Below are positions 14,758-52,105 of a stretch of DNA of 64,000 nt, one piece after another (position 1 is the stretch's first letter; each line of letters begins with the position of its first letter). Position numbers and translations under genes: made by a program. A model generated the notes under the pieces. It was not told the DNA's origin. It did no database searches and saw only the letters and a list, made by a program, of their open reading frames with translations. The stretch is from Prorocentrum cordatum (taxonomy: Eukaryota): NCBI GenBank assembly GCA_963575745.1, contig CAUYUJ010000048.1, forward strand, positions 62,001-126,000. The letters run 5' to 3'.

Positions 14758-14883
14758 ATGGCACGGGGCCGGGCCCTGCTCCTGTGCGCACTGCTCGCGC
14801 TCCCGCGCCTGCCGTGCGCCGCGCGGGCCGAGGCGTCGGGCAAGAGCCAGGAGCCCGCAGCAGATCGGAGGGGGGGCCTAGAA
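14758..14883 (+). CDS. Coiled-coil protein exon 1, signal peptide (MARGRALLLCALLALPRLPCAARAEASGKSQEPAADRRGGLE)
   Basis: aaaATGG start, basic N-terminus, hydrophobic core and AxA site. Phase-0 GT donor at 14884 fits the exon at 16081; alternative GA donors exist at 14863 and 14881. Confidence 0.65.
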
Positions 14884-17175: not shown

Positions 17176-17182
17176 GACGCCC

Positions 17183-17369: not shown

Positions 17370-17373
17370 CCAG

Positions 17374-17994
17374 GACGACGCCCGCGCCACGTTCGGCCGC
17401 TCCTTCAGCCTGCTGCAGCAGCGGTCGCAGCGGAGGGCGTCCACCGAGGCGGAGCTCGCGCAGGACCGGCGTTCCGAGAAGGCCATGCAGCGCATCGCGG
17501 CGATCGCCAAGAAGCACAAGAATTGGGCGCTAGTGTCGCTGGCCGTGCGCACCCGCCTGGACTCCTTCAAGGAGGTAATCGCTGCCATGGACACCATGGC
17601 GGCCGAGCTGGCAACTCAGCAGAAGAAGGAATACGAGAAGTGGGAGACCTGCAAGTCCGAGATCGACAAGACCGAGGACACCATCAAGGTGGAGGAGCGC
17701 ACGAAGAAGGAGCTCGGCGAGACGCACACGTCGCTGGTGGACAAGATCGGCACTCTGAACGGCGAGATAGCCGAGCTCCGGAAGCAGGTGGCCGACAACG
17801 AGGTGGCCCTCAAGGACGCCGGCGAGGACCGGAAGGCCGAGAACCAGCTGTACCAGGCCTCCGTCATGGACCAGCGCGCCACGGTGCGCATCCTCGAGAA
17901 GGCCCTCGCGCGCCTGAAGACGTACTACGCCATGCTGCAGACGGAGCAGCCCGTGCCCGGCGCCACCGCGCCTGCGCCGCCGGCCAGGGGCAAG
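17374..17994 (+). CDS. Coiled-coil protein exon 3 (DDARATFGRSFSLLQ...PAPPARGK)
   Basis: Same composition and codon bias as exon 2. cag|G acceptor, AAG|gt donor. Confidence 0.92.
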
Positions 17995-22729: not shown

Positions 22730-22760
<31 letters not shown>

Positions 22761-24070
22761 CGGCCCGCCCGCCCGCACGCACGCACGCCCGCCCGCCCGC
22801 CCGCCCGCGCCCGAACACACACACACACACACACTTACACACACTTACACACACTTACACACACTTACACACACTTGCACACACTTGCACACACTTACAC
22901 TTACACACACACACTTACACTTACACACACTTACACACAACACACACAACACACAACACACACACACACAACACACAACACACACAACCACACAACACAC
23001 CACACACAACACACAACACACAACAAACACACAACAAACACACACGCACACGCACACGCACACGCACACGCACACGCACACGCACACGCACACGCACACG
23101 CACACGCACACGCACACGCACACGCACACGCACACGCACACGCACACGCACACGCACACGCACACGCACACGCACACGCACACGCACACGCACACGCACA
23201 CGCACACGCACACGCACACGCACACGCACGCGCACGCGCACGCGCACGCGCACGCGCACGCGCACGCGCACCGCACGCGCGCACGCACACGCACACGCGC
23301 GCGCACACGCGCACGCACGCGCGCACGCACACGCGACGCACACGCACACGCACCCACACCACACACACACACACACGCACACACACACACCACACGCACA
23401 CACACACACACACCCACACACACACGCACACGCACACGCATACGCACACGCATACGCATACGCGCACGCGCACGCGCGCGCACGCGCGCGCGCGCCCGCG
23501 CGCCCGCGCGCGCCCGCGCGCCCGCGCCCCGCGCGCCGCGCACCCGCGCACCCGCGCGCCCGCGCCCGCGCACCCGCGCACCGCGCACCCGCGCACCCGC
23601 GCGCACCCGCGCACCGCGCACCCGCGCGCGCGCGCACCCGCGCACCCGCGCACCCGCGCACCCCCACCCCACACCCCCACACCCCCACACCCCACACCCC
23701 ACACCCCCACACCCCCACACACACATACACACATACACACGCACGCGCACGCGCACACGCACACGCACACGCACACGCACACACACACACACACCACACA
23801 CCACACACCACCACACACACACACACACCACACACCACCACACACACACAATCACACACACAAACGCACGCACGCACGCACGCACGTACATACACAAACA
23901 CACGCACACGCGCACACGCGCACACGCGCACACGCGCACACACGCATACACGCACACACGCACACAATCACACAATCACACACGCACGCAGCACGCACAC
24001 GCACACACAATACACACGCAAGCACGCACTCATGCACACACGCACACAGCACGCACACGCACACACAATA
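22385..24070. repeat. CA/CG-rich compound microsatellite
   Basis: (CA)n, (CACACG)n and (CGCACCCG)n blocks. A similar (CAACACA)n tract lies at ~29230-29910. Confidence 0.95.
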
Positions 24071-24142
24071 CACCGATCCTGGGCCCAGGACGGGGCTGGG
24101 TAGGGCCGATGTAGAGTGTATAACGTCGGCGCCCCCGTGCAG

Positions 24143-24442
24143 GCGTACGAGAAGGGCGCCGGCGCCGCAGGCGTCCTGCAGGTCATCCAGATGGTCATCG
24201 AGGACGCCACGCGCACAGAGCAGGCGCTCGACAAGGACGAGAACGATGCGCAGAAGCGCTATGCGGCCATCGTGAACGACCTCACGGCCAGCATCGAGGC
24301 GGACCGCATCGCGATCGAGGAGAAGGAGCAGCAGGTCGCCGCAACCGAGGTGGAGAAGAGCGAGACAGAGGAGGCCCAGCTGGCCAACGAGGAGGAGCTC
24401 AAGAACCTGGCGGAGCTGTTGCACGCGCACCACCTGGAGTGC
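24143..24442 (+). CDS. Coiled-coil protein exon 4 (AYEKGAGAAGVLQVIQMVIEDA...LLHAHHLEC)
   Basis: cag|G acceptor, in frame with exon 3. Parallels the SYNARSGRILGVL segment of exon 2 (internal duplication). GA donor at 24443. Confidence 0.9.
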
Positions 24443-26026
24443 GATCCACATGGCTGCCGCCACATCCGCCGACCCCCCTCGCGTTTCCGAGGCTGCGGCT
24501 GGCCGCCGCAGGCGTGGATGCCAGGGAACTTGAGCGGGGGGCGGAGACGAGAAGATCGTGGAGGGGGCGCAGAGGACGAGGACAAAGGGGAGGATGAGAC
24601 GGAGGAACATAAGGGGCAAGAGAGAGAGAGGGAGAGAGAGAAAAAAGAAGAAGAAACAAATCCATTCACATCAATTCGAAACGGTGCTTGGCGGGTCGGC
24701 AGGGGCCCCCGTACTTCCTGGCGTTGGAGCGGCCCCAGAGCGGCCCCAGAGGGCGCCAAGAGAGTTGTTCAACGGCACCAGGACGCCTCAAGCTGGCCTT
24801 CGGGGCCCCGAAGATGCCCAAAGAGAGCCCCAGGAAGGCCGAAAAGAGTTCCAAGACGCCCTAAGATAGCCCCAGGACGGCCCAAGAGGCCCCGTAGACG
24901 CCCCAGGAGGTCCCCAGGACGACTTGAAAGAGGGCTTCAAGCACACATCGTCCAAATTCATTAAGTTTTTGCATGATTTGCGCATTGCCGCCCTGTTCGC
25001 CCTCACGACGCCTCCGACGGCCCAAGAGACCGCCAGAATCGGCACGAGACGGCCCAAGAGACCCCCACGAGATTCGAAAGACGGCCCCAGAGGCCACCAA
25101 GCGAGCTCCAACACGGCCCCAGGGGCCCCCAAGAAGGCCACATACTCCCCCTGGACGAGTCCAGGAGGCCCCAAATACGGTCCCAAGATGTGCCCGAGAG
25201 ACGCTATCCGAGCTGATATGTCGTGTTTTCCATCCCACGATGGCCACAAAAGCCCAAAAGAGGTCCCCGAGGGGCCCCCAACAGGCTCCCAGAGGCCCCC
25301 TAAGAGGACCCCCAGAGGCCCCAAGAGGCCCCAAGAGCCCTTGGTAGAGAGGGCCCCAGGTTGAGCCAAGAGCGCCGTAGTTGCCCCGCTCCACTTTCGC
25401 ATCCGCTGCGGCCCCTGGGCGATTCCATATTTTTCCCAGCAGGGGCGTCGGCCCAGGGTTCTCTTTTAGCTCTTTACCCCCGGAATCGACGGCTGTAGGG
25501 CCAGCGAAATGATCTGCGATACGGAACGGGGTCGAGCAGGGCTGGCGAAATGATTGTTGATGTCTCGAGCGAAACGCTTGTTTTGTCTCAGAATGTGTTG
25601 ATGATGTCTCGAGCTAAACGCTTGGTTTGTGTTATAGATGGTTCCCCGCCTGGGGACCAGAATTCAGAGGATGTCTCAGGTGAAATGCTTGATTTCACGT
25701 GCTCAGATCTTGAGGATGTCTCTCTCTGTTTCCCCATATCCTCAGATGGGGTTCTTGTTATTACTTGGACGCCTCCTACTCCTCCTCCTTCTTCCTCCTC
25801 CTCTTTTCTCGTCCCCTCCTGTCGGACATACTCAGACTTGCTCATACACAGACTTACTCATACTCAGACTTACTCATACTCAGACCTACTCATACTCAGA
25901 CTTACTCACACTCAGACATACTCATATACAGACTTACTCATACACAGACTTACTCATACACAGTATTAGTCATACCCAGACGTACACATACACAGACTTA
26001 CTCATACACAGACTTACTCATACTCA

Positions 26027-26480
26027 GCACCCCTAAGGGGAGCCGCCAGGGGTGGTTGCACGGGCTCGTTCGCGGCCATTTTGTGGGGATGTCTCAGGCG
26101 GTTTGCCTGTTTCTGTGCCCAACATCCTTCGCTTTCGGAGCAGATTTGGAGGATGTCTCGAGCGAGGCGCTCATTTCAGCACCCCTAAGGGGAGCCGCCA
26201 GGGGTGGTTGCACGGGCTCGTTCGCGGCCATTTTGTGGGGATGTCTCAGGCGGTTTGCTTGTTTCTGTGCCCAACATCCTTCGCTTTCGGAGCAGATTTG
26301 GAGGATGTCTCGAGCGAGGCGCTCATTTCAGCACCCCTAAGGGGAGCCGCCAGGGGTGGTTGCACGGGCTCGTTCGCGGCCATTTTGTGGGGATGTCTCA
26401 GGCGGTTTGCCTGTTTCTGTGCCCAACATCCTTCGCTTTCGGAGCAGATTTGGAGGATGTCTCGAGCGAGGCGCTCATTT
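26027..26480. repeat. 152-bp tandem repeat, 3 near-identical copies
   Basis: cagcacccctaaggggagccgccagggg recurs at 152-bp spacing; identical ORF starts at 26052, 26204 and 26356. Confidence 0.92.
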
Positions 26481-27654
26481 TCACCCCCCAGGTGGGCCAG
26501 ATTTTGAGGATGTCTCGATCGGTTTGCTAGTTTTGGTGGCCAGGCTCGTGGGCGCAGATTCTTCTCAGGATGCCACAGGAGGCTCCAACAGGCTCCAGGA
26601 GGCTCCAGGAGACCACATGAGGTCCCAGGAGGCATCAGGAGGCCACAGAAAGACTCAAGAGGCCACAGGATGTCCCAAGAGGCTCCAGGAGGCCCCAGGA
26701 AGCTCCAGAAGGCCTCAGGAAACCACAGGAGACCCCAGGAGACAACAGGAAGCGCCAGGAGGCCTCGGAAGGCAACAGGAGGCCCCGAGAGGCCCCAGGA
26801 GCAGGAGGCCTCAGAAGGCAACAGGAGTGGCTCCAATCCCATGTGTTTTACGTATGCTCCTATCGATTGGGCCTCACCTGGAGCACGATTCTTTGATGTT
26901 CTACGTATGTTTCTATAGATGGTCCTTCTCCTGTGTACACAATCCTAAATGTTTTACTCATGTTCCTATGTATTGGGCCTCTCCTGGGGCACGAGTCCTT
27001 GGTGTTTTACGCGTGTTCCTATAGATTGCCCTTCTCCTGTGGCTCTAATCCGCAATGTTTTATGTACGTCTGTTGCTATAGATTGCGCCTCCCCTGGGGC
27101 ACGAAACCTTCCTAGGAGGTCCCAGGAGGTCCCAAGAGGCTCCTGGAGACCCCAGGAAGCCCCAGTAGGTTTCAGGAGGCCCCAGGAGGCCCCAGGCTCA
27201 TGCACAGAGACGCGCTCGTACTACTGAGGCTCATTCACACTCCAATTCATTCGCAGTTAGATTGATGTCCAGACCGTCACAACTGAAGCCCGTTAATATT
27301 CGAAAGTTCTTGCGCCTAGACATTCACGGCGGACAGGTCCATGCGAGTAGATGCACATATGGGGAGCTCCACGCAGTGAATATGTTTTTTGTTCTCTCTC
27401 TCCCTCTCTCTCTCTCTCTTTCTCTCTCTCGAGAGACGCTTCGAGGATGTCTCGAGCGAAATTCTTGTTTTACAGAACTCGAGCGGCCTGGGCGCCCCAG
27501 GATGCCCAGGTGGTTCTGGGAGTCCGAACGCAATGTAATTTCCTAAGGAACGTGGCCCTGGGAGCGCGGACGCAGCGTAATTCACCAGGGAGCGCAGCCT
27601 TGGGAGCGTTGACGCAGCGTAGTTTACAAGGGACCGTGGCCCTGGCAGCACGGT

Positions 27655-28495
27655 GCCCTGGCACGTTTCGTGGCGCGTCCCGTGGCGAGTCCCTTTGGCA
27701 CGTCGCGCGGCGTGTCCCCTGGCACGTCCCGTGGCACGTCCAGTGGCACGTTCCGTAGCGCGTCCGTTTGGCACGTCTTGCGGTGCGTCCCCATTGCACG
27801 TCCTCTGGCACGTCGCCTAGCGCGTCCCTTGGGACGTTCCGAAGCGCGTCCCCTTGGCTTGTCCCTTTGTCAAGTAGCTCAGGGGCAGCCACAATGTGCT
27901 CAGGCAGCTCGAGCTTAAGATCAAGGCCAGTTCGGTCAGGACTCGGATGCAAAGGAGGACTCGGTCTACAACGCTATACAGCAGAATCGTTCCATGGCAC
28001 TTCGCAGTTCAGCACGGCGCCGCGCAGCACAGCCTTTGGCACGGAACACCAAGATCGATACATTCAGCATTGCAACCTGGCACGTTTCGTGGCGCGTCCC
28101 GTGGCGAGTCCCTTTGGCACGTCGCGCGGCGCGTCCCCTGGCACGTCCCGTGGCACGTCCAGTGGCACGTTCCGTAGCGCGTCCGTTTGGCACGTCTTGC
28201 GGTGCGTCCCCATTGCACGTCCTCTGGCACGTCGCCTAGCGCGTCCCTTGGGACGTTCCGTAGGGCGTCCCCCTGGCCTGTCCTCTTGTCAAGTAGCTCA
28301 GGGGCAGCCACTATGTGCTCAGGCAGCTCGAGCTTAAGATCAAGGCCAGTTCGGTCAGGACTCGGATGCAAATGAGGACTCGATCCACAACGCTACAGAG
28401 CACAATCGCGGCATGGCACATCGCAATTCAGTACGGCGCAGCACAGCACAGCTCCTGGCACGGCACATCAAGATCGATACATTCAGCCTTGCAAT
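27655..28495. repeat. ~419-bp tandem duplication of a composite-element 3' module
   Basis: ORFs at 27768 and 28187 begin identically. Homologous to ~21420-22270 and ~31540-32260. Confidence 0.88.
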
Positions 28496-30579
28496 TGCTT
28501 GTCGCCCAATCAGGTGTCTTGAAGACGTCACCATGCCTTACATTTCTGTACTTCTTTCCGGGTTCGTGGTTCGAGCATGTTCGGCCGCTCCGCGCGCCTC
28601 CCGCGCGCCCTCTCCGTGCGCGCAGGACGCAAGGGAGAGGGCGCGATCCAGACGCGGTTGCTCCAGCGCTGAACCCGCCTGCAAGCGTTTGGCGATTTTA
28701 CTTCGGCCCCCGCATGGACGCGGCGGGCGCCCTCGGTGGAGGAGCAGTTGTGAAACGCGCTTCAATCAAGTCGCAGTTGTGAAACGCGCTTCAATCCTTA
28801 GGATAAGCGGCAGTACAGTCAAGATGCTAGAATAAGGAACAGTTTGGGTTCGGAAGGGGCTCGGTGTTCCTTAGTTCGTTCCATGGCTGTTCCTCTAGCC
28901 CTCCTCGTGAACGAAGGCGGTTCTAGGGCTTAAAGGGGCTTCGTTCCTTAGCTAGCGTTCCATATTTCAGCGGCCCGACTGTAGCTAACAGCGTCGCAAA
29001 ACCAGACGCGCGCCGTCTCTCCTCGACCCCCTCGATTCCAGGGATTATCCCATGGGTCCCCGCTCGTTTTTTCCCGGAAGAGCCTGGGGCCCAGGATTCT
29101 CGTTGTCTTGGTTTCCCCCCGGCCTCGACTTGCGCAGGGCCGGCGAAAATATTGTAGTGGCCTTCCGCCAGTGCCGCCGTTCCGGGTCGCTTGAGGTGCC
29201 CCCCAGATTGGGTTGCGACTCTTCGCCAACAGACACGCACGCACACGCTCGCAGACATTACGCGCACACACGCACACACACACACACACGCGCACACACA
29301 CACCCACAGGCACACACAAACACACACACATACACACACAACACACACAACACACACAACACACAACACACAATACACAACACACAACACACACAACACA
29401 CACAACACACACAACACACAACACACACAACACACACAACACACAACATACGCACAACACACAACACACAACACACACAACACACAACATGCAACACACA
29501 CACAACACACAACACACACAACATACAACACACACAACACAACACACACACACAACACACACAACACACAACACACACAACACACACAACACACACAACA
29601 CACACAACACACAACACACACAACACACACAGCCACAGCACACACACAACACACACAGCACACACACAGCACACACAGCACACACAGCACACAGCACACA
29701 CAACACACACAACACACACAACACACACAACACACAACACACAACACACAACACACAACACACAACACACACAGCACACCACACACACACACACACTACA
29801 CTCACACACGCGCGCCACCTTCGCAGGCACATACACACGCACACGCCGGCAACACGCACACATACACACCGCGCACACCGCACAAACACACACACACCAC
29901 ACAACAGACACGCATTTCACCGCCACCTTCGTCTTCCCCCCATTTGTTTCCCGTTTTTTCGCTCTTGTCCCGTTCCACTTCTCTATCCCTCTTTCCTCGA
30001 TTTCTTTCCCGCGTTCACGGACAAACCTTACCCCGCGCACGCGCGCACCCCCCCCTCCCTTCCTCCCCTGCAGAGCCACCCCAGCAACCATTCCAGAGGC
30101 TGAAGCTCAGCCTCGACGCTGTAGGTGAGGCTCCTTCAAACTCACACGCTGCGGAAGCCTCCCCTTCCCATCCCCCACGCCATCAGAACGCACGCCACCG
30201 GAATCCCGCCCTTTTTCTTCCCCCAAAACCCCCTGTCCACAGGCGGGACGGGGGACCGAACCCCCCCCCCCTCTCCACGCCACCGGAACCCACGCCACCG
30301 GACCCCCCCCCTTTCTTTTACCCCGGCAGAGCCACCCCGGCCACCGGACCCCCCACTCTCCCCCCCTCTTCCCCCAATCCCCCTTGTCCACAGGCGGGAC
30401 GGGGGACCGTACCCCCCCCCCACGCCACCGGAACTCACGCCACTGGAATCCCCCCCCTCCCCCCCCTCCCCCTACCCCGGCAGAGCCACCCTGGTCACCC
30501 CGCCCCCCTGAAACCCGCACGCCGGATCGACTGATTTCTTTCATATGTAACGACGTCGCCCATGGCAGGCGCGTGAAGA

Positions 30580-31505
30580 GGTGAGGATGTCCCGAGCGAA
30601 ACGCTGGTTTTTGAAATTCCGATAGACGAAACACGTGGTGAAGTAAACATTATCGTTTGTTGGCGGATATTCCGAGTCTCGAGCGAAACGCTTGGCTTGC
30701 AGAGTGTGTTGAGGATTTCACGAGCGAGGCGCTTGTTTCGTGTTATATACAGTGTTCCTCTTCTGGGGACCAGAATTCAGAGAATGTCTCAGGTGAACTG
30801 CTTGTTTTCATGTGCCCAGGCCTTGGGAGTCACGAGCGAGACGCTTGGTTTCACGCGTCCAGGTTGCCCAGGCAGATGTCTAACATGAGGATGTGTGTTG
30901 CGAGACGCTTGCTTTCACGTGTCCAGGTCGCCCAGGCGGATCTCTAGCATGCGGATGTGTTGAGAACGTCTCCAGCGATACGCTTGTTTTCGCTTGCCCT
31001 GGTCGCCTAGGCGGATGTGCAACATGGAGATGGTTTTAGGATGTGTCGAGCGAGACGCTTGCTTTCACGTATCCAGGTCGCCAAGGCGGATGGCTAGCAT
31101 GAGGGTGTATGTTGAGGATGTGTTGAGCGAGACGCTTGTTTTCACTTGCCCTGGTCGCCTAGTCGGATGTCCAACATGAAGAAGTTGAGGATGTGTTGAA
31201 CGAGACGCTTGCTTTCACGTGTCCAGGTCGCCCAGGCGGGTGTCTAGCATGCGGATGTGTTGAGGATATGTTGATGGAGACGCTTGTTATCGCTTGCCCA
31301 GGCCGCCGAGGCGGATGTCTAACATGAGGATTTGGGCAGGATGTCTCGAGCGAAACGCTTATGTTCACGCGTCCAGGCTGCCCAGGCAGATGTCCAAGGA
31401 TGTGTGGAGAACGTCTCGAGCGAGATGATGGGTTTCAAGTGTCCAGGTCGCCCAGGCGGATGTCTAACATGAGGATGTGTCGAGGATGTCCCGAGCGAGA
31501 CGCTT
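30580..31505. repeat. ~60-70-bp degenerate minisatellite
   Basis: Recurrent gaggatgt..cgagcgagacgcttg...ccaggtcgcccaggcggatgtctaacatg. Confidence 0.8.
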
Positions 31506-32419
31506 GTCGCAGTAGAGCGCATCGCAGTCAACCCCGCCTGTCCGTGGGGCGTCCCCTGGCGCGCTGGCGCGTCCCCTGGCGCGTCCCTTGCGACGTTCTG
31601 GCGTGAGGTGCCTTGGCACGTCCCTTTGCACGCCACTCGGCGTGGCGGCACGTTCCCTGGCTCGTCCTCTGTCGCGTGTCCTGGCTCTTCCCAGGCGTTT
31701 CCCCTGCCCGTTCCGTGGCGCACCCTTTGCAACGTCCCTTGGCATGACGTCCTCTGGCCGCCCCATGGCACGCGCCTTGGCACGTCTCGTGAGAGGTCCC
31801 TGACACGTCCAGGGTGCGTCCCCTTTTACGTTCCCTGACACGCCCCCTGGCGCATCCCCTTGTTGCGCCCCTGGCACATCCTGCGGCGCGTCCGTGAGCC
31901 TGTGCCCCTCGACTTTCCGGAGCTGAGTCGGATTCCGAGGGCGAGTTGATTGAACGTCCCGCACATTTCTGCTTCAACTAGCTCTGGGGCAGCTACGTTG
32001 TGCTCAGTCAGCTCGAGCTTGAGATCCTGATCAGTTCGGTCGGCACTGGGATGCGAGGGAGGACTCGACCCACAATGCTATAGAGCACAATCGTGACATG
32101 GCACATCGCATTTCAGCACTGCACAACACAGTGAAGGCCTTCGGCGCGGTACATCAAGATCGATGCACTCAGCATGTCAATTGCCCGTCGCCCAACCAGG
32201 TGTCTTGAAAACGTTGCCATGCCTCACATTTCGACATTCCCTTCGGGTTCGTAGGTCGATCATGTTTTCATATGCGCGCTAGGTGAGAAGAAGAGAGAGA
32301 GAGAAATAAAGAAAAGGAGAGAGAGAGAGGAATAGAGAGAGAGAGAGAGATAGAGAGAAGGACAGAGAGGGGGTGGGGGGGGGCAACAAACAAAGAAGAA
32401 ACGAACACGAGATACGGGA

Positions 32420-32450
<31 letters not shown>

Positions 32451-34709
32451 TTAAAAACAATAGTTTTATGTGTGTTCTTTTTATATCGGGGGGCGGGGCC
32501 CCTCCTCCCCTGCGGGAAACTGAATGAGCCTGGCGCTTGCTTTGCGTCTGTGCGATACGTAAACACTACTGTTCGTTCGCTCTCCTCTCCCTCCGCCTTG
32601 TCCTCCCCCTCCTCGTCGTTCTCCCCCATCTTACTTCTCCTCCTCCACCTCCTCCTCCTCTTCCCCATCCGCTTCCTCATCGTTCTCGCCCTTCTCTCCA
32701 TCCGCGTCTGCCTTTTCCTCCTCCTTCGCATCCTCGCCCTCCTCTTCCTCCCTCCCCTCTCTATCAATTTTCTGATGCTCGTCGTCGTCCCTCCCTCCCT
32801 CCCTCGTCCCCATGTTCCTCCTACCTCATGAGGCGTCATGTCTCCCTGGTCCGCCGCCGCTCTTTCTCCGGATATCGAACCCGCAGCCGCCATCCACTCA
32901 CAGTGCGGAAACCATTTGATGGGACACATTGTGCACGTGATGCATGCAGCGTTTTTGTTTGTTGTTTACACCATCCATGTCATCTGCATGAATGAATGAA
33001 AGCGAGCGAAGGGCGCAACGACTCAGGAGCCCAGTATGGATGTTTTTTGTTTGGCCGCGACGTGAAGGAGTTATGGAAACGACACGTAGCACGCTGCGCA
33101 AAAAATTACAGGCGGCGAACGCGAACGTCGCGACGAGCGGGGCATTCAAACATTGATGCCCTTTGTAATGTGCGGGGGCAGCGTGCAGCATTGAAAACGC
33201 ATAAAACATTGGAATATTGACAGGAGTTTGCAAGAACAAGTATTTCAACTAGCACAACCAATAGAGACACGTTACCGATGTGTAAGGCAAGGTTTTTTGC
33301 AGTATACATCATAATTTGAGAGCCAAGACGAAACGCGCGAAAGGCGCAGCAAAGGGCGAACAAAAGAAACGCGCTCATACTTGTCCATCGCTCGACATGA
33401 GCGTGCTCGACAAACGGAGACTGCAATTACACGCGTTGCGCCCGCGCGACGCGGCCCGTGTTGCAAGCGCGCGCAGGAATCGACGAAGGCGGCCATGGGT
33501 GCATCCAAAATTGCATGCCCCATCTGACCCGTTGAAACGCGCTCAAACCGATAGCCAGCAGCACACGTTAAGCGAAAGCGAGAGGTACGCGAAGGACGGG
33601 TGAGGGGTGCATTCAAAAGTAAATGTCCCTCAAATATGCGAGGCCCCCGCATGGAGTGAACGCCAATGGGTTTCAAAGCGTCACCATCTGTTCGCGCGCG
33701 CTCGCCATGTTGCGCGGAAAAAATTGACGACTTCATGCCAGATCGTTCAATGTTCGCAACATTGCCGCTTCTTTCTTGAATTTTTTAGAGCAAATGTTGG
33801 GCGACCGCCCGCATTCAGAATTTATCGAGAATGTGTTGAATTTACCTTTCGCCGCATTCCACGAAACCAGAAGGGCATGTGGGTCGTGGACGAATCTCCG
33901 CGAAAAACAAATCTCTGATTGGGGTGGTTCAGGACTCCCTCAACGCGCCCGCATGGGTGGATTACTTCCCGTGACAGCTGGAAGCTGCGGCGCTTCCAAT
34001 ATTCGAAGCGTACATCTTTCATGGCAGACATCCCGCGCCCAAAATCAACGAACAATGCACCTGACTTCTTCATTTGGGCGGCATTCGTGGGATCCTTTCA
34101 CTGGGGTGCGTCCGACATGGATGAAATCCCTCGAGCAAGTGAGACCGATGGCTCCCTGTTTCGCCCGTCGCGATCCTAATGAATGGCAGGCATCCCGCTC
34201 CCAACAAAAACGAACCACGCGAGTAGTTCTTCCCTCTTGACGACAGTAACAGATGACAGGCAGGGACGGGCAAAGCACATGGCCCCAAGATGCATTAGGG
34301 CGGCGCTGGGAACGCCTTTCGTTCGCTGGCAAGTGACCCCTCGATTCCCCCAGAGGTTCCCCACGTTTTGCCACCGCATCGGACGTGCCGGCCCAGATTG
34401 CGCGAAGACTTCACAACGGGTCCTTCGAGGAATCCCTAGGCTCTTCCACGAGGCTCAAGCTGATCGATGCGTTGGACATTGCTTGTTCGGAAGTCGCGGT
34501 CTCGCGACCGTGGAGCGTTCGGCATGGTTTGCGGGCTGCCCGAGGCAGCACTCTGGCGTGGCCTGCTGCAGCCCTCGCGCGAGCCCAGCACAGCCCCACG
34601 ACGGCCTACGACTGCATGCGATCGGGATCTTTTGCACAGCGTGTCGCTCTGCCGGTCCTGGCCCTTCGCGCTTCGGTGCGACACTCTATCCCTCTCGCGG
34701 TCCCCCAGC

Positions 34710-34889
34710 TCGAAGACCGATTTCTGACCACATCCACCTCTGGATCCTCGATTCTATGATAGGCCCTCGGGGGTGGAAGTGGGTAGTTTTTCCTTCCCCT
34801 GGAGCGGGGAAACTGCCCACCTCCACCTCTGGAAACCGTTTTTCGCAAGGCACCTCGGGAAGTGGGTGTGGTCAGAAATCGGTCTCCTA
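34710..34889. mobile_element. TIR MITE with 5-bp TSD
   Basis: agaccgatttctgaccaca...tgtggtcagaaatcggtct inverted repeat, flanked by ccagc/ccagc. Confidence 0.78.
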
Positions 34890-35714
34890 CCAGCGTCAAC
34901 GTCCCGGGCCGTTCCGAGCCTCCCGCCCCGCGGAGCGGGGCGACACGCTGCTCGGTTGCAGCGCGGAGCTTGGCGCCGGGGCCGCCGCGACACGCTAAGC
35001 AAAAGTTCCCAGCCGTAGCCCGAGAAAGTCCAAGCCCAGTCCAAGATAGCCCGAACGCCCTCACCACCACGAGGCCAGAATCGCAAGTCCTGTCTGGACG
35101 ACCTCGCCCCAACGGCCCGCAGACTACTCTGGACAGCCCCGGAGCCATGTCTGTCCCGCCCTCGACGACCAGAGAGCGGGCCCTCCGCCGGCCCCGAAGG
35201 ACTGCCCAGGGAGCTCCAAAGTGTTCCCGAGGATTCTCAGAGAGATCGCCACCCGCTCCACACTCCCCCCAGCCTCTCAGCCACGCGCAGAGGGAGGTGG
35301 GGGGAGGGGGGAGGGCTTCTTAGAAGCACCCCTGCTTCTTAGAAGGCGCGGGCCTTATCTATAGGTGCAAGGCCGGCGCCTTCTAAGATGCAGCCTCCTT
35401 CTAAGAAGCCCTCCCCCCTCCCTCCACCCCCTTGTGCTCGCCGCCAAGCCTCATCACAATGGAGCGGAGGTCGGTGTCTCTCCTCCGGTTTCCCCCGCCT
35501 CCTTGATCCCTCCTTCCCGTCGCTCCTACCACTTCGTATCCCTGCGGCCCTTCTTAAGCGCGCGACGCGCGCGCGCGTGGGTTGGGAACTTCGGCTTAGG
35601 GGCGTCGCGCGGCGCACCGGGTCCGGGGGCCCGGGGCGGGGACCTCGACCGCAAATGTGCACCCCGGGGGGCCCGGAGGCTCGTCGGGGCTTGCCGGAGG
35701 CCTCCCCAGTCAGG

Positions 35715-36980
35715 CAAGACGGCCCAAGAAGCGCCCAAGACGGCCCAAGAAACTTCCAAGAGGCCTCCAAGAGGGCTCCGAGATGCTGAAGATGGCCTCC
35801 AGACGTCCAAGGACGCCCCCAAGAGGCCCCAAGAAGCCTCCAACATGCGTCCCAAGAGGGCCCCTAGACGCAAAAATTGGCCCATTCCCTTCGTAAAACG
35901 TACATTTTCAACAAAGTTGTCTTTTGGGCTTTCCGACGTTACAGGACGGCCCAAGAGGCGCCCAAGACCGCCCCAAGACGGCCCAAGAAGCTTCCAGAGG
36001 GCCCCAGGACAGCCCAAGAGGGCCCCAAGACGGCCCAAGAGGCGCCCAAGATGGCCCAAGAGGGCCCCAAGACGGGCCCAAGAGGGGGCCCAGAGGGGGA
36101 CCACGAACCGCAAGCTCGAGCCTTCCGCCCCAAGAGGCCGCCAGGAGGCCCCCAGGAGGCCCCTCAAGAGGCCCCAGGAGACCCCAGACGTCCAAGGACG
36201 CCCCCAAGAGGCCCCAAGAAGCCTCCAACATGCGTCCCAAGAGGGCCCCTAGACGCAAGAATTGGCCCATTCCCTTTGTAAAACGTACATTTTTAACAAA
36301 GTCGCCTTTTGGGCTTTCCGACGTTACAGGACGGCCCAAGAGGCGCCCAAGACCGCCCCAAGACGGCCCAAGAAGCTTCCAAGAGGGCCCCAGGACAGCC
36401 CAAGAGGGCCCCAAGACGGCCCAAGAGGCGCCCAAGATGGCCCAAGAGGGCCCCAAGACGGGCCCAAGAGGGGGCCCAGAGGGGGACCACGAACCGCAAG
36501 CTCGAGCCTTCCGCCCCAAGAGGCCGCCAGGAGGCCCCCAGGAGGCCCCTCAAGAGGCCCCAGGAGACCCCAGACGTCCAAGGACGCCCCCAAGAGGCCC
36601 CAAGAAGCCTCCAACATGCGTCCCAAGAGGGCCCCTAGACGCAAAAATTGGCCCATTCCCTTCGTAAAACGTACAGTTTTAACAAAGTCGCCTTTTGGGC
36701 TTTCCGACGTTACAGGACGGCCCAAGAGGCGCCCAAGACCGCCCCAAGACGGCCCAAGAAGCTTCCAAGAGGGCCCCAGGACAGCCCAAGAGGGCCCCAA
36801 GACGGCCCAAGAGGCGCCCAAGATGGCCCAAGAGGGCCCCAAGACGGGCCCAAGAGGGGGCCCAGAGGGGGACCACGAACCGCAAGCTCGAGCCTTCCGC
36901 CCCAAGAGGCCGCCAGGAGGCCCCAAGGAGGCCCCTCAAGAGGCCCCAGGAGACCCCAGTCGTCCAAGGACGCCCCCAAG
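35715..36980. repeat. ~386-bp tandem repeat, ~3.3 copies, built from ccaaga/ggcccc subrepeats
   Basis: Near-identical ORF starts at 35877, 36262 and 36648. Confidence 0.92.
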
Positions 36981-39900
36981 ACGCTTCGCGTCACCAATTT
37001 CTTCTCGCAACGATTCCTGGGTCTGTGACTCGACAGAACCTAAGCGCGCGCGAAGCGCGCGCGTGGTTCTATATGTATATATATATATATTATATATATG
37101 TGCGCTTTTCATGTGCAGCGATGCACATACATACGTGTGTACATATATATGTACATATATTTGTATGCACATTCACACATAGTTACATGTGTATATATAT
37201 ATATATGTGTGTGTATTAATGCACCTATGTATGATAAAGATATATAGATGGAGGATGCGGAGAGACAGATTTAGCGTCGGCTCTGTTGGTCCGTCTCGGG
37301 GCCCTTGCTGGGACCTTCCAGGGATGCCTGGGCGCTCTCTTGGGGCCTGTCGGGAGCATTCGTGGGCAAACTGAGGCCGCCTTGGGGTCCTCGGCGGGCC
37401 GTCTTGGTTCCGACGAGCTCCCTGTGGGGATCGTCGGGGGCTGTCCTGGCGGCCTCTTGGACCGTCTTGGGCGATGGTACGCCGAAAGGCATGCTGCTAG
37501 CACTCAAGGGAGGAAAAAACACCTGGACCGGACAATTGGCGTTTACTAAGCGGCCCTGGGCGTTTACTAAACAGCCTTGCCCTGCTTTATTATTTCCTTG
37601 TGTGCGTTTACTAAACGGCTTCGCGAGTCGGGGAGGTTAGTATCGGGGAGGATATTCTTGCCCTCTAGACACTGCGCGCAAGAACCAAATATTGAGCCCA
37701 CAGAGCGGGATACAGGGTTGGCCCCCTCATAGGGGGAAGTCTGCACGCAGAGTTTGAACTCATTGGGTGTGGGGGGTACTGCGCCGAGTCCTCCTCCTCC
37801 TCCTCCTCCTCGACCCCCTTCCTCCCTCCCTCCCTGCCTCCCTCCTTCGTCCTCCAGGATCGAGGCGTTGGGCACGCGTCTGACACTCCTCGAGCCTCCA
37901 GAGTGGGCCGACAGGTGCGGTACCAATCGTTGCAACGTTTCTTGGGGTCGTGTTGGCGTCCTTTGGGAGGGGGTTGTAAGGCCTCGGGGGCCAGTGGAGA
38001 GCCTGTCGTGGTTCATGGGGCACGGAGTGCGCAATGGGTGTGCCGAGTGGAGGCTCCGAGGAGCCGCTTCGGGGGCCAGGTGAGCGCCCCACATGCGCGA
38101 AGTGCGTGAGGGGTGTGCCGCGGTTTCGTGTTTCCAGGCTGTATGTTTACGTATCCCATGGGCCCTGAGGCCCAAACCATTTGTATGTTTACGTGTCACA
38201 GGGGCCTGAGAGCGCAGCTTACTCGTCATTTCACGTGCCCCACGAGAGTATGGAGCAGGAACTGCGTGTTCGGTGAACTGGGTTGAGGCTTCCGTGGCCT
38301 TGAGGGCAGGCCATTCGTATTTTTACGTGTCCCAGTAGCTGTGATGCAGTCCTGGTTTGCGTTGGCCGACGGAATGGGCGAGGCAGCGTTTGGCATGCCT
38401 CCTGCGTGCCAGCTCACTCTCTTCCACCCTCCTTTTGGTCTTCGTGTACATTCGGAGCCCGCAACACGGCCAGGGCCTGCAGGAGGCCCGCCGGATGCAA
38501 TCGCTTCGCTCACTCCGCAGGCCCGTACCGTGTACAATGTTCAGTGGCATTCGGCCCGGCTGGGGCGTTGCCCAGAAGCCTTGTCGGGAGGCTCGTTGGG
38601 GTCTCCCGGGGGCCTCGATCGGAGGCCTCGTCGCTGTGGGGGGACCGCTCGTGGCATCTCGGGGTTGCCCTGGGGCCTCCAGGGGGCCCTTTTGGAGGCC
38701 TCTTCGGGGGCCTTGCTGGCAGTCTCGGCGGCTATCTTCGGGGAGAAATGGCTCCTAATGGCAGTTCGGGTTCCCCTCTTTGGGCCCCCCTTGGGTGCCT
38801 CTGGAGCCCCCTTGGGGGGCCCTCTCGGGCTATCCTGGAGTCCTCCTGGAAACCTCTTGGGTTGTCTTGGGGTGATGTGGGGCCCCCCTAGTCGGAAACT
38901 GGAGCATATACATTACCAGCGGCGTGTTGTTTTTCAATCCTTGGACTTTTTGAGGGTCAGGTACGACGTCGGGGTGGTGTGGTGTATAGTTGTTTCCCCG
39001 TTTTCCTGGGGAGATGACGAACATGTATACACCAGCATCCCGTATACACCAGGATCCGCTTTCCTGTGCGAATTTCAGTGCAGGGCTCGAAAACGCGTCG
39101 GTGTCGTCTTGGTGTCGGAAGCACGAAAAGGCGATGACGCGAACGTCGCTGACAAGACTTAAAGACAATCACATATGTTTGCCCCTCGGGGCCTCCGTGG
39201 GGTTATCTTGGGGCTCTCTTCACGCGTTTCGGAGGCGTTTCGGAGGCGTCTCGTGCTAACCAGAGATTAATTACCTTGGGCGTGTTTGAGCGCTCTTGGG
39301 CCGTCTCGGGCCATCTTGAACTCTCTTGGTGGCTCCATGGGGCGCCATTGGGAGCCTTGGAGGCCGCGCTCAGGACGATTACCATCTTTGAATCGAGTCT
39401 GCCGGGAGTCTGCCGGGGCACTTTACGTCCGGGGACTCTCAGGGGCCGTCCCGCGCGCCCCTTGGGAGTCCTGTGCGCCTGCTACTGGAGATCTTACCAC
39501 GCCTCTGGCCAGTTGGGCCGGCGAATTTGACGTTGCTGGGGGGATGGTTTTGATCGCCTGGGACTCTCCTCGGCCCTCTTGGGACGCCTCTGGATGCTTC
39601 TTGCGTGCTGTGTGGGTCTCATGGGCCCTTTCCCATTCCATTCCGTTCCACTGCGAGTCTGGGAGGTGTCTTTGGTTGTCTTGGCGGCCTCTGGGGACTC
39701 TCTTGAGCCACTCTGCAGCAGCATTGTTGAAACAGCCTCTCGGACTCCTACTTGGCACGTCTCCTCCATGTCTCATGTCTGCAATTATTGACGCTTTGCG
39801 TATCACCAGCAGCTACGCCTTTGTAGTTCAATTCACCTTCGGCAGCTTGCAGCCCCTGGCAGTCAGCAGCCCCTGGCAGTCAGCAGCGCGCCTGCAGCTC

Positions 39901-40951
39901 GATGCACGTTTGCAGCCCTTGGCAGTTTTGCAGCCCTGCCCCCTCCCCCTCGGCTACCTCCTGGTCCCGGCCTGAGTTGCGGCGGTAGGCCTGCTTGCGC
40001 TACGTAACTTAGGACTTCGCGCGGCCCGCTCGGACCTTGACACGCCGTCGGCGCGCTCACCTGCGGCTGGTACCAAAAAAGTATCTCCAGCAGCCCATCC
40101 GTGAACGATTCCCAGGCGAGATGTCGTGTCAGGGGCGGCGGGTGGAGCACTGGCGCAACAATGAAAGGGTGCACCAGTTCAACCAAAGCTGCCGAAGCTG
40201 CGGTCAACCTGAACATCGGCCATACATTTTTCACTTGGCGACCTTTGAGAGCCCCTTGCAGGCTGCTTCGGGCTATTTGAAGGCTCTGTTGGGGTCCTTT
40301 GGGGTATCTTGGGGGCCATCTCGGCGCTCCCTCGGGGCCCTTTGTGGGACCTTGGCGGGCCCGTGGGGTTGTCTTTCAGGCAATCGACCGCAATCCTGCT
40401 TGGCTTTCGGCCCTCGTGATTATTGGAGCCTTCTCGGGGTGCTCTTGTGGGGCCTTGGGGCCCTCTCGGGGTCCTCTTAGAATACTCTGAGCCTCTCTGG
40501 GGCCCATCCGAAGCAAATAGACGAGACAGCAAACAACAAATTTAGTGATAACGCGCTACAAAAGCTGCGTGATTTGGGCATGTTCGGGGCGTCCTTGGGA
40601 GGCTGTGTTGGGGTTTTTCGGGTGCATGTTCGAGGCCATCTTGAGCAAAATCAGAGGATTTTGCTTGATCGTTGGGGAAATTTTGGCCGGTTGGGACCGC
40701 CCTGGCCCTTTTCTGTTGTGCCAGCACGGACCTTGCGACACCTCGCGCCCCCCCGTCCACACACACACACACCGGGGACAAGGTACGATGGTAGACTCCC
40801 CCCCAGAGGGGAAAACGGAGTCGTTCTGCAAGGGCTGATGCCCTTGACCGCCCGTGTCCAGAGGGCTGTGAATTGTGAGCCCCGCTGTGGAGAGACCGAC
40901 GGAGCTGGAGGAAACGTCTCACACGGCGGGTGATCCCGAGAAGGGTCGGCG

Positions 40952-40996
40952 GACTTCCTCCTCAAGTACTTCGACATCCGTCAGAAGGCGCGCCAG
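40952..40996 (+). CDS. Coiled-coil protein exon 5 (DFLLKYFDIRQKARQ)
   Basis: Completes the C-D-F-L-L-K-Y-F-D-x-R-Q-x-A-R motif begun in exon 4. CAG|gt donor. Acceptor is non-canonical (cg|G). Confidence 0.82.
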
Positions 40997-41000
40997 GTTC

Positions 41001-41171
41001 GGGCGACGAAATCTATACGTGTCCACTGCTCCCTGGCCAGGCCCATCCTGAACCCAGGAGCCTGTGTATACGCCTTCCTGGCCAAGCCAGGAGGGCGTGG
41101 CGTGTACACCGCTGCTGGCTTCAGGATGGGCCTGGCCAGGGAGCAGTGGATATGCATAGATCCCGTCGCCC
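41001..41171. mobile_element. Hairpin MITE forming intron 5 of the nested gene
   Basis: 41001-41061 versus the reverse complement of 41111-41171: 54/61 identical, ungapped. CAGG at both junctions. Confidence 0.85.
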
Positions 41172-41176
41172 TACAG

Positions 41177-41239
41177 GAGGAGATGGACGCCATCGGCGAC
41201 GCCAAGGCGATCCTCTCGGGCGCCGACTTCGGCAAGTAG
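41177..41239 (+). CDS. Coiled-coil protein exon 6, terminal (EEMDAIGDAKAILSGADFGK*)
   Basis: cag|G acceptor, in frame, TAG at 41237-41239. Spliced CDS totals 2250 nt (749 aa plus stop). Confidence 0.88.
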   Translation, partial: EEMDAIGDAKAILSGADFGK

Positions 41240-42653: not shown

Positions 42654-42724
42654 GCCCCGTGCTCGAGGCGCTCGGGCGGGGCTACCGCCTGATCGACACC
42701 GCGCAGGTCTACAACAACGAGAAG
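42654..42724 (+). CDS. Aldo-keto reductase exon (GPVLEALGRGYRLIDTAQVYNNEK)
   Basis: GYRxIDTAxxYxNE motif with catalytic Asp and Tyr. AG|G acceptor, GC donor. Confidence 0.92.
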
Positions 42725-48142: not shown

Positions 48143-48234
48143 GTGTGGCGTTCCAGCCATGGCTACGACCGGACCATGAAGGCGTGCAAGCAGTCTTTGA
48201 AGAAGTTGGGCGTGGATTACATCGATTTATATGT
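48143..48234 (+). CDS. Aldo-keto reductase exon (VWRSSHGYDRTMKACKQSLKKLGVDYIDLYV)
   Basis: SLxxLGxDYIDLY motif. AG|G acceptor. Donor taken as gatagc at 48235, the same hexamer as the donor at 52500. Confidence 0.9.
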
Positions 48235-48299
48235 GATAGCACCGGCTTTGCCATCGCTCTCTGCCCGGTTTCCGGGAAGCTCCTGCGAGTGGACAAGAG

Positions 48300-48446
48300 T
48301 TAAGTCGGGCATTTTCCTCTACAGGAGAAACATTCTAAAATCGTCAAACATTTGTCTGGGGACTATTTTGAACAATTGTTGAACATGTTTTTGCTAGTTC
48401 TATGTTTCTTCCAAAATCCGCATGTAGGAGGACATGCCCGACACAA
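48300..48446. mobile_element. Family A MITE
   Basis: Family TIRs; TSD gacaagag / ggcaaggg (6/8). Confidence 0.8.
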
Positions 48447-48674
48447 GGCAAGGGGTGTTCTTTCCGAACTCGTATTGCTCGAAGGCGAACCCCCGCATAA
48501 TGCGCCAGCATCGCCGAGCTATTCGAACGGGCAGCCGGCTGTACCCCAGCGCGAGGTCGGAACCGGAGGACGGGCCACGACGCACACGACAAGCACGGCG
48601 CCGGCGACGCTGGCGCTGCTAACAGCCCCAGACCTTCGAAGCCGTGATTTGTGCACGATGTGGGCCCCTTCTCG

Positions 48675-48845
48675 AGGCCTCCCAGATGGGGTCGGAGCAG
48701 ATGGGGCCGCAGAATGGCGCCGCATCGCCGACGCACCGTCGATGTCGCTTATGAATCACCGATGCATCGCCGATGCATCGGCGATGCATCTGCGATGAGG
48801 TGCAATGCTCCGACCACGTCCACCCGGACCCTATTTGGGAGGCTT
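48675..48845. mobile_element. Family C MITE
   Basis: aggcctcccagatggggtcggagcagatgggg...cggaccctatttgggaggctt with a gccgatgcatcggcgatgcat core. Confidence 0.8.
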
Positions 48846-49079
48846 TCAGACGGGGCTAGGACGAGGATAAATCCGTTCAAGAGCGTTCCGGCACGCCTTC
48901 CGAGCATTCCGGGACGCTCTGAGAAGACATTCTCCAGTCGGAGATTGCTGGAAGAGCCTGTGGCCCAAGGTGCCCCCAGGATGTCCAAGGAGCCCCCCAC
49001 GGCCTCCAGAGCACCCCCCACGAGGCCCACAGGGCCCCAGAGGCTCCAAAATTGAGCGAATAGCTGGGGGCACCTTGGG

Positions 49080-49233
49080 TTATGTCGGGCACGTCCCTCT
49101 ACAGGAGGAATATCAAAAATAGTAACAACATGGTATGGGGACGATTTCTCTTATCATTTTGATAATGTTTGAGCATGTTGTGGCTATTTTCAATTTCCCT
49201 GAATCCGCCTGTAGGGGGACATGCCCGACCTAA
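49080..49233. mobile_element. Family A MITE
   Basis: Family TIRs; exact TSD accttggg. Confidence 0.88.
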
Positions 49234-51738: not shown

Positions 51739-51769
<31 letters not shown>

Positions 51770-52032
51770 AGAGAGAGAGAGTGAGAAAATCAACAAAAGA
51801 AACACGAACACACGGGGGCACAGACACGAATGAACGTCTATTTCCAGGCAAGTACGAGTACCTGGGTGAAGTGGAGGGGAGGGCGAACACCCAGCAGATA
51901 CTGGAACATGGGGGGAATCCTGGCACTAGTGTCTGTTTAGTTATTTGTGTGCCCCGCCTGAGCCCCTTCAATCTGTCTTGGTCCCGGTTGGGCAGCTACC
52001 AGGGGAGGCCCCACCGTGAAGAGGGGCGCGCG

Positions 52033-52105
52033 GCTTCACTGGCCCGGCTGCAAGACGGGCTGGCCGCTCCCCAGGGGCACCTCGGCGCCACCCGACTGGA
52101 CGCCG
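52033..52105 (+). CDS. Aldo-keto reductase exon (LHWPGCKTGWPLPRGTSAPPDWTP)
   Basis: HWP motif with catalytic His, colinear and in frame with the flanking exons. 5' boundary ambiguous: CG|G at 52033, or in-frame AG|G at 52024. GA donor at 52106. Confidence 0.8.

What the first reader, a model, noticed from the sequence alone, without database searches (positions are those of the whole stretch)
24443..40951. Apparent GA...CG intron (16.5 kb) whose 3' splice site lies in a 17-bp stem
Seen: LEC|DFLLKYFD needs TGC|gatcc...ggcg|GAC (equivalently AT...GG), with no AG at the junction. The nearest AG (40942-40943) would give LEWSADF and lose the Cys. tccgccgacccccctcg (24465-24481) matches the reverse complement of 40937-40953 at 15/17, covering both that AG and the junction. 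Inference: structure-guided, non-AG 3' splice-site choice. The same boundary type recurs in the AKR gene.
Basis: partly seen in the sequence, partly recalled or inferred. Interest (0 to 1): 0.8.

Follow-up and report, generated by a model that had tools for sequence, protein, structure and literature searches.

The report
Dinoflagellate intron with non-AG end
A 16.5-kb intron in a gene of the red-tide alga Prorocentrum cordatum appears to be spliced at a CG instead of the near-universal AG, a second such intron lies in the neighbouring gene, and the deposited gene models get both wrong.

Summary
The window is Prorocentrum cordatum: deposited model CAK0788394.1 (P0090) is encoded in it. 24443-40951 is intron 4 of 5 in a 738-codon gene nested in a 34-kb intron of an aldo-keto reductase (AKR) gene. 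Every register giving LEC|DF is non-canonical (GA..CG, AT..GG, TC..GA, CC..AC).

Splicing at GA..CG gives an open frame 737/738 identical to a metatranscriptome protein (P0089) reading LECDF. All 52 of 52 homologues keep C-D-[FWY]. A paralogous locus, annotated LE-YSA-DF, must also have C at -2, while its near-identical transcripts read LECDF. That argues against a base-call error or a recent mutation.

AKR intron 48239-52036 also has no AG register, and a protein identical on all seven exons mapped reads LYVI|HWPG. So 2 of 11 mapped introns have a normal GA or GC start and a non-AG end.

The 15/17 stem is real (11-bp perfect run, about 0.3% of random pairs). It is the inverted-repeat type already described for dinoflagellate introner elements. 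The AKR intron lacks one and AG introns here have stronger ones, so structure-guided choice is unsupported.

The parts
14758..14850 (+). Gene 1 exon 1 (start codon; signal-peptide-like N-terminus)
   Evidence: tblastn of P0002; CDS model 737/738 identical to P0089
16081..17175 (+). Gene 1 exon 2; intron 1 (14851-16080) has a GA..AG register
17374..17994 (+). Gene 1 exon 3; intron 2 (17176-17373, 198 nt) is GA..AG with strongly pairing ends
24143..24442 (+). Gene 1 exon 4, ending ...HHLEC; intron 3 (17995-24142) is GT..AG, introner-derived, swollen by satellites
24443..40951 (+). Intron 4, 16,509 nt: GA start, CG end. Filled with tandem repeats; no Pfam-recognisable ORF among those scanned
24441..24442 (+). 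Alternative GC donor that, with the AG at 40942-40943, would give in-frame LEWSADF. Not seen in any transcript-derived protein
24465..24481 (+). 5' arm of the inverted repeat, starting 23 nt into the intron
40937..40953 (+). 3' arm of the inverted repeat; covers the unused AG and the used junction
40942..40943 (+). Consensus-looking AG|G that is not the junction in transcript-derived proteins. The deposited model P0090 uses it (...LQR|SADF)
40952..40996 (+). Gene 1 exon 5 (DFLLKYFDIRQKARQ)
40997..41176 (+). Intron 5, 180 nt, GT..AG, near-perfect palindrome (61-nt arms, 89%). Same introner family as the ends of intron 3
41177..41239 (+). Gene 1 exon 6 with stop codon
8477..42653 (+). 34,177-nt GC..AG intron of the AKR gene that contains the whole of gene 1 on the same strand
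48143..48238 (+). AKR exon B, ending ...DLYVI
48239..52036 (+). Second non-AG intron (3,798 nt): only GC..TT, AG..CT or TA..GC fit LYVI|HWPG. No end-pairing
52037..52105 (+). AKR exon C, starting HWPG (catalytic-His region). Skipped by the deposited model

Best explanation
24443-40951 is a genuine intron of a Prorocentrum cordatum nuclear gene. It is removed exactly between ...GAGTGC and GACTTC..., so it starts with a normal dinoflagellate GA donor and ends with CG|G instead of AG|G. The organism's splicing machinery therefore accepts some 3' ends without AG, and passes over a consensus-looking AG|G 8 nt upstream. I think the most likely agent is the ordinary U2-type spliceosome with a relaxed rule for the 3' dinucleotide; this step is inferred, not shown. 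The same holds for a second intron, in the host AKR gene. The stem is an inverted repeat of the introner-element kind near the intron ends. It may help bring together the ends of a very long intron, but it is not what specifies a non-AG site. Annotation tools that demand AG mis-model both introns. Shown: the sequence facts, the intact frame, near-identical transcript-derived proteins with the exact join, a non-AG state in a paralogous locus, and the mis-modelling. Inferred: that these transcripts come from this locus, and the mechanism.
For: 1. The window CDS spliced GA..CG is 2217 nt with no internal stop, and is 737/738 identical to the metatranscriptome protein P0089, which reads LECDF.
2. 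All 52 of 52 homologues (44, 8) keep C-D-[FWY] with no insertion. Two related cDNA contigs at about 90% nt identity join at the same place, with the 2-nt GA overlap.
3. The paralogous P. cordatum locus (P0086/P0087, CAK0827224.1/CAK0827223.1, another contig) is annotated LE-YSA-DF, so its genome reads GCN immediately before GAC, that is C at -2. The near-identical transcript proteins P0002 and P0088 read LECDF.
4. The AKR intron 48239-52036 has no AG register. P0053 is identical on all seven exons mapped, 163 of 163 residues, and reads LYVI|HWPG. Turning its CTT| into CAG| would need two base changes.
5. Expression: 18 of 24 listed runs hold at least half of the sampled words of exons 2-3, the top value being 0.88. 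By my own arithmetic, exon-only 31-mers are 1656 of 1887, or 0.878, so the best runs hold essentially every exon word and none of intron 2.
6. The deposited model P0090 is encoded in this window (913 of 994 residues in exact colinear 6-mer chains). It fails at exactly these two introns.
7. P. cordatum is reported with 23.8% GA donors and an unexplained low share of AGG acceptors, 79.7% against 93% or more in other free-living species (PMC10666404, Table 2 passage and reviewer exchange).
Against: P0089 differs from the window at one residue (Q107K) and comes from an environmental sample. The family has several paralogues at 94-99% identity, so the LECDF transcripts could come from another, unassembled copy with a normal AG. 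The GC..AG alternative is in frame and looks canonical. The paralogue's DNA was not seen; its C at -2 is deduced from a predicted protein. Only 11 introns were mapped, so the 2 of 11 rate is anecdotal. No mechanism for choosing a non-AG site is known in core dinoflagellates.
Confidence: 0.65

Rival explanations
1. At this locus the intron is spliced canonically, GC (24441) to AG (40943). The product reads LEWSADF and lacks the invariant Cys, and the LECDF transcripts come from another near-identical copy.
For: The alternative is in frame and both sites look like dinoflagellate consensus (GC donor, AG|G acceptor). The deposited models use that AG here (P0090) and its counterpart in the paralogue (P0086/P0087, YSA). 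Several paralogues exist.
Against: None of the 52 homologues, and neither of the transcript-derived cluster members P0088 and P0089, shows a 2-residue insertion; only genome-predicted models do. The annotation tools were restricted to AG acceptors (PMC10666404 methods passage), so their models are not independent evidence. The Cys-Asp is invariant. The AKR case has no comparable explanation: its in-frame AG option adds RGARL next to the catalytic-His motif and is absent from P0053.
Confidence: 0.15
2. The locus is a dead or unproductive duplicate: both nested genes lost a working acceptor, and the matching transcripts come from intact copies elsewhere.
For: Dinoflagellate genomes hold many recent duplicates, and the assembly is incomplete (PMC10666404 passages). 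Two defects in one block could share one history.
Against: Both genes keep intact frames: 738 codons with no stop, 737/738 identical to a transcript protein, and 163 of 163 for the AKR. The best runs hold essentially all exon 2-3 words. The non-AG state is shared with a paralogue about 6% diverged in protein, so it is old, yet the frames have not decayed.
Confidence: 0.12
3. A base-call or assembly error: the genome really reads AG at 40950-40951.
For: A single A-to-C change would restore GGAG|GAC, and no genomic reads could be checked.
Against: The paralogous locus must also have C at -2 (GCN before GAC). The AKR case would need two substitutions. The window has no N.
Confidence: 0.03
4. One reading: the stem 24465-24481 x 40937-40953 positions the 3' cleavage site and masks the AG, so structure rather than sequence selects the site. 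This is compatible with the best explanation as an added claim.
For: The 11-bp perfect run is rare by chance (0.33%) and stable (-30.9 kcal/mol), and it covers the unused AG. Hairpin-forming inverted repeats that join exon boundaries are described for Amoebophrya non-canonical introns (PMC7789003 passages).
Against: The other non-AG intron has no stem. Introns 2, 3 and 5 have stronger end-pairing and use AG. The helix encloses the used junction as much as the unused AG. The 5' arm lies 22 nt from the 5' splice site. Whole-end duplex energy is not significant (z = -0.71). In the paralogue the two bases matching 40944-40945 differ (AY instead of GG, deduced from YSA), and no compensating change could be checked.
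Confidence: 0.15

Closest known systems
Core-dinoflagellate spliceosomal introns, G[T/C/A]..AG|G with an identically repeated intron boundary (Mendez et al. 2015, PMC5032977, passages; Dougan et al. 2023, PMC10666404, Table 2 passage)
   Same: GA donor. G as the first exon base after the intron. A short repeat shared by both boundaries (here only GA). Long, repeat-filled intron. 9 of the 11 introns mapped in the window fit this type fully.
   Different: The 3' dinucleotide is CG, not AG, and the upstream exon does not end in AG. The 2024 review lists 'other boundaries' only for Amoebophrya (PMC11453091 passage). Mendez et al. say the 3' repeat 'often', so not always, holds AGG. That may be an earlier hint of the same thing.
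Non-canonical introns and introner elements of Amoebophrya A25/A120 (Farhat et al. 2021, PMC7789003, passages)
   Same: RNA-supported introns without a fixed terminal dinucleotide. A subset carries 8-20-nt inverted repeats near both ends, able to form a hairpin that joins the exons. They coexist with canonical introns in the same genes.
   Different: Those introns are short (120-240 nt on average), occur in a parasitic basal lineage reported to lack U1, and have 3-5-nt direct repeats overlapping the boundaries. Here the intron is 16.5 kb, the host is a free-living core dinoflagellate, the donor is normal, only the 3' end deviates, and the boundary repeat is 2 nt.
Introner(-like) elements of Symbiodinium and Polarella (Roy et al., bioRxiv 10.1101/2020.10.14.339549, passages) and of P. 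cordatum (PMC10666404 supplementary note passage: 2.4% of introns)
   Same: An inverted repeat reaching the 3' splice site. Introns 3 and 5 of the same gene are clear members of one such family: they share GTTCGGG at the start and a 28-nt block at the same offset.
   Different: In that model the element supplies an AG at its end and a GHNN target-site duplication supplies the donor. Intron 4 has no AG, its 5' arm sits 22 nt inside, and no family relatives of its ends were found in the window.
Euglenid nonconventional introns (recalled, not checked in a paper here)
   Same: Variable borders and base-pairing between intron ends.
   Different: A different lineage. The window is P. cordatum, and the donors here follow the dinoflagellate rule.

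Membership tests
Dinoflagellate G[T/C/A]..AG|G spliceosomal intron | 5' dinucleotide GT, GC or GA | tested here: met
   The GA register 24443-40951 exists.
Dinoflagellate G[T/C/A]..AG|G spliceosomal intron | 3' dinucleotide AG | tested here: not met
   The four registers compatible with the protein end in CG, GG, GA or AC.
Dinoflagellate G[T/C/A]..AG|G spliceosomal intron | G as the first base of the downstream exon | tested here: met
   Exon 5 starts GAC.
Dinoflagellate G[T/C/A]..AG|G spliceosomal intron | Identically repeated intron boundary of 2-9 bp containing GG or AGG (Mendez 2015) | tested here: inconclusive
   Only the 2-nt GA is shared by both boundaries. G|G is present at the 3' side, and no AGG at either side.
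Introner element as defined by Farhat 2021 and Dougan 2023 | Inverted repeat of 8-20 nt within 30 bases of each intron end | tested here: met
   An 11-nt perfect run, 15/17 overall. The 5' arm starts at intron base 23; the 3' arm ends 2 nt into the exon.
Introner element as defined by Farhat 2021 and Dougan 2023 | [quoted passage not shown] | tested here: inconclusive
   GATCC occurs at 24443-24447 and 40931-40935, but a 5-mer shared by two 30-nt stretches is expected by chance about as often as not (my estimate).
Introner element as a repeated mobile family | Sequence-similar copies in other introns | not tested
   No whole genome was held. The general repeat scan of 14000-42000 was not a test of intron 4's ends and did not pair them with another intron. 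Introns 3 and 5 do share a family.
Amoebophrya-type non-canonical intron | Junction supported by RNA, with termini other than GT..AG | tested here: inconclusive
   Supported only through transcript-derived proteins (P0089 737/738).
Amoebophrya-type non-canonical intron | Direct repeat of 3-5 nt overlapping the exon/intron boundaries | tested here: not met
   The boundary overlap is 2 nt. For the AKR intron it is 0-1 nt.
U12-type (AT..AC) intron | 5' consensus RTATCCTY (as quoted in PMC5032977) | tested here: not met
   The AT register starts ATCCACAT and ends GG. The minor spliceosome is reported absent in alveolates (PMC7789003 passage).

The most novel reading that the evidence does not exclude
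Prorocentrum cordatum, and perhaps other large-genome core dinoflagellates, has a sizeable class of introns, perhaps one in five, with normal G[A/C] starts whose 3' ends are chosen without an AG. The choice would rest on a rule still unknown, such as distance from a branch site lying in the shared CCGWGAAG octamer 8-15 nt upstream, or some other determinant. Every published gene set built with AG-only tools would then be wrong at these introns. That would account for the species' odd 79.7% AGG statistic, for chimeric models like the one at this locus, and for part of its low BUSCO recovery.
Probability: 0.35. Interest if true: 0.8.

Novelty: new variant of a known kind. Interest (0 to 1): 0.6.

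Why it matters
AG at the 3' splice site is among the most constant signals in eukaryotic genes, and all dinoflagellate annotation pipelines I read about assume it (methods passage of PMC10666404). Here two introns of intact genes lack it; for one gene, runs hold all its exon 2-3 words. The deposited model of this locus is a 994-residue chimera of two genes with invented exons. If the class is common, it changes gene counts and protein sequences for bloom-forming dinoflagellates. It would also extend the Amoebophrya non-canonical intron phenomenon to core dinoflagellates. Finally, it gives a concrete and testable case, an unused AG|G 8 nt from a used CG|G, for asking how the 3' site is chosen.

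Tried and rejected
- No whole genome is held for the window.
- The metagenome-contig scan gave only 2 relatives, both about 90% identical cDNAs, and no genomic orthologue.
- A search for short protein fragments close to exon 4 found nothing above 58% identity.
- Pfam scans of ORFs in and around the intron found no gene inside intron 4. The held Pfam copy also gave no hit for the gene's own product, although the precomputed label PF27870 appears.
- A decayed copy of AKR exon a0 just upstream of exon A was suggested by a weak tblastn alignment, but has no nucleotide support. Dropped.
- Considered from the sequence and rejected:
  - A twintron or recursive splicing: whatever is removed upstream, the last two bases before the exon stay CG.
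  - A second excision of the 8 nt GGTCGGCG: too short for a spliceosome.
  - A U12-type intron: no RTATCCTY.
  - A euglenid nonconventional intron: wrong lineage.
  - RNA editing of C to A at the acceptor: no evidence, and the AKR case would need two edits.
- Earlier notes of this scan held nothing on this genome or on such introns.
- Three full-text searches found no paper describing non-AG acceptors in Prorocentrum or other core dinoflagellates.


Full report
**What the window is.** The window is about 59% G+C eukaryotic DNA with no N. An exact look-up of protein clusters names it. P0090 (994 aa, NCBI CAK0788394.1, 'unnamed protein product [Prorocentrum cordatum]', contig of 671,331 bases) is encoded colinearly in the window. 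Of its 994 residues, 913 lie in exact 6-mer chains running from 16120 to 58562. The published description of that genome fits: 59.7% G+C, mean intron 4,709 bp, donors GT 24.7%, GC 51.4% and GA 23.8% (PMC10666404, passages).

**The gene.** tblastn of a 95%-identical homologue, and then an exact register scan with P0089, give six exons on the + strand:
- 14758-14850
- 16081-17175
- 17374-17994
- 24143-24442
- 40952-40996
- 41177-41239

Joined, they make 2217 nt with no internal stop. The product is 737/738 identical to P0089, a 738-aa protein from a JGI metatranscriptome; the only difference is Q107K. The protein belongs to a conserved, apparently secreted coiled-coil family. It carries the precomputed label PF27870, but the Pfam copy at hand gave no hit.

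**The observation.** Introns 1, 2, 3 and 5 each have a register of the dinoflagellate type: GA..AG, GA..AG, GT..AG and GT..AG. Intron 4 has none. Its registers are GA..CG, AT..GG and TC..GA (same mRNA), plus CC..AC (synonymous). The AG at 40942-40943 combined with a GC donor at 24441 would stay in frame and give LEWSADF. The inverted repeat is as described: 15 of 17, with an 11-nt perfect run 24465-24475 x 40943-40953 and a local duplex of -30.9 kcal/mol.

**Is the LEC|DF join used?**
- All 52 of 52 homologues retrieved (44, 8) keep C-D-[FWY] with no insertion.
- Two related cDNA contigs at about 90% nt identity align to exon 4 up to 24444 and to exon 5 from 40952. The 2-nt overlap is the GA ambiguity.
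- P0089, all but identical to this locus, reads LECDF.
- 18 of 24 listed runs hold at least half of the sampled 31-mers of 16078-17994. The best values are 0.88 and 0.87, and several of these runs are declared poly-A RNA-Seq. By my own arithmetic only 1656 of 1887 words (0.878) are free of intron sequence. So the best runs hold essentially all exon words and none of intron 2. A sequence identical to these exons is therefore transcribed and spliced.
- I could not see reads across the junction.

**Not an error or a fresh mutation.** The cluster of P0002 holds two genome-predicted P. cordatum proteins from another contig (P0086 and P0087, CAK0827224.1 and CAK0827223.1). They read LE-YSA-DF. Apart from eleven substitutions, ten of them in the first 60 residues, that is their only difference from the transcript proteins P0002 and P0088, which read LECDF. 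An Ala codon (GCN) directly before GAC means that locus also has C two bases before the exon. The non-AG end is thus shared by two loci about 6% apart in protein. The deposited models use the upstream AG because the pipeline was adapted for GC and GA donors only (methods passage).

**A second case.** P0053 (284 aa, metatranscriptome) matches seven exons in the window exactly, 163 of 163 residues. The first lies at 8431-8476 and the next at 42654-42724, so gene 1 sits inside a 34,177-nt GC..AG intron of this AKR gene. Five of the six AKR introns mapped have a GC..AG or GA..AG register. The intron between ...DLYVI (48238) and HWPG... (52037) allows only GC..TT, AG..CT or TA..GC. Upstream AGs would add RGARL, or break the frame. 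P0053 and the other four AKR homologues whose sequences were printed read LYVIHWPG. The deposited model skips this exon and invents another at 50830-50925. In all, 2 of 11 mapped introns have a normal donor and a non-AG end.

**The stem.** Whole-end duplex energies against 200 mononucleotide shuffles give the following:

| Intron | 3' end | z |
|---|---|---|
| Gene 1 intron 5 | AG | -10.8 |
| Gene 1 intron 2 | AG | -5.4 |
| Gene 1 intron 3 | AG | -5.3 |
| Gene 1 intron 4 | CG | -0.71 |
| AKR 48239-52036 | non-AG | +0.37 |

By longest perfect run, intron 4's 11 nt is rare: 0.33% of 3000 random pairs of 70-nt windows and 1.8% of 600 pairs of 165-nt windows. The AKR intron has no run of 8 or more.

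Introns 3 and 5 share their first seven bases and a 28-nt block at the same offset. Intron 5 is a 180-nt palindrome. These are introner elements as defined for this genome: inverted repeats of 8-20 nt and direct repeats of 3-5 nt within 30 bases of the ends (supplementary note passage). Intron 4's stem meets that definition. Since the other non-AG intron has no stem, and strongly paired introns use AG, the stem does not explain the non-AG choice.

**One shared feature.** Both non-AG ends have the octamer CCGWGAAG upstream, 8 and 15 nt before the exon (read). With two cases this is only a lead.

**Comparison with what is known.**
- Core dinoflagellate introns are described as G[T/C/A]..AG with G after the AG, and with a repeated boundary (PMC5032977 passages; PMC11453091 passage).
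- 'Other boundaries' are reported for Amoebophrya, where more than 60% of RNA-supported introns lack GT..AG and a subset has hairpin-forming inverted repeats (PMC7789003 passages).
- A reviewer of the P. cordatum paper asked why only 79.7% of acceptors are AGG, and the authors had no explanation.
- My three literature searches found no description of non-AG acceptors in core dinoflagellates. Mendez et al. note only that the 3' repeat 'often' contains AGG.

**Verdict.** The non-AG 3' end is probably real and used (0.65). Structure-guided choice is not supported. The finding is a new variant of a known kind, and it bears on annotation. The missing piece is direct junction reads.

Noticed in passing
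window 8431-58557 (+): Gene 1 (14758-41239) lies entirely inside a 34,177-nt GC..AG intron (8477-42653) of an aldo-keto reductase gene on the same strand. The AKR's later exons lie beyond the window end.
   Followed up: yes
window 16120-58562: The deposited P. cordatum model CAK0788394.1 (P0090, 994 aa) is a chimera of the two genes. It reads from exon 4 into intron 4, adds three spurious exons (24491-24541, 28627-28728, 35199-35219), drops gene 1's stop codon, skips AKR exon C and reads AKR exon E in a wrong frame.
   Followed up: yes
window 40997-41176 and 17995-24142: Intron 5 is a 180-nt near-perfect palindrome (61-nt arms, 89%; 31-nt perfect run). The ends of the 6.1-kb intron 3 belong to the same family: the same first 7 nt and a 28-nt block at the same offset. 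An introner-born intron appears to have grown about 30-fold by satellite insertions.
   Followed up: partly
window 24143-24154: Transcript proteins P0003 and P0088 lack four residues (KAYE or AYEK, the register is ambiguous). This fits an alternative AG|G acceptor 12 nt downstream of intron 3's acceptor (GAGAAG|GGC).
   Followed up: partly
window 17176-17178: The deposited model has one extra Asp (TEDDDA against TEDDA in P0089). It chose a GC donor at 17179 where transcript proteins fit the GA donor at 17176.
   Followed up: partly
window 40936-40943 and 52014-52021: Both non-AG introns carry CCGWGAAG shortly before the exon (8 and 15 nt). It might be a branch-site-like signal or a coincidence.
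   Followed up: no
window 22000-24100; 35611-37067; 30829-31480; 29227-29800: Introns 3 and 4 are packed with arrays: about 2 kb of AC-rich microsatellite, four copies of a 386-nt unit (two of them 99% alike), 75-nt and 9/16-nt satellites, and a 430-nt repeat shared between introns 3 and 4 (21339-22221, 27646-28517).
   Followed up: no
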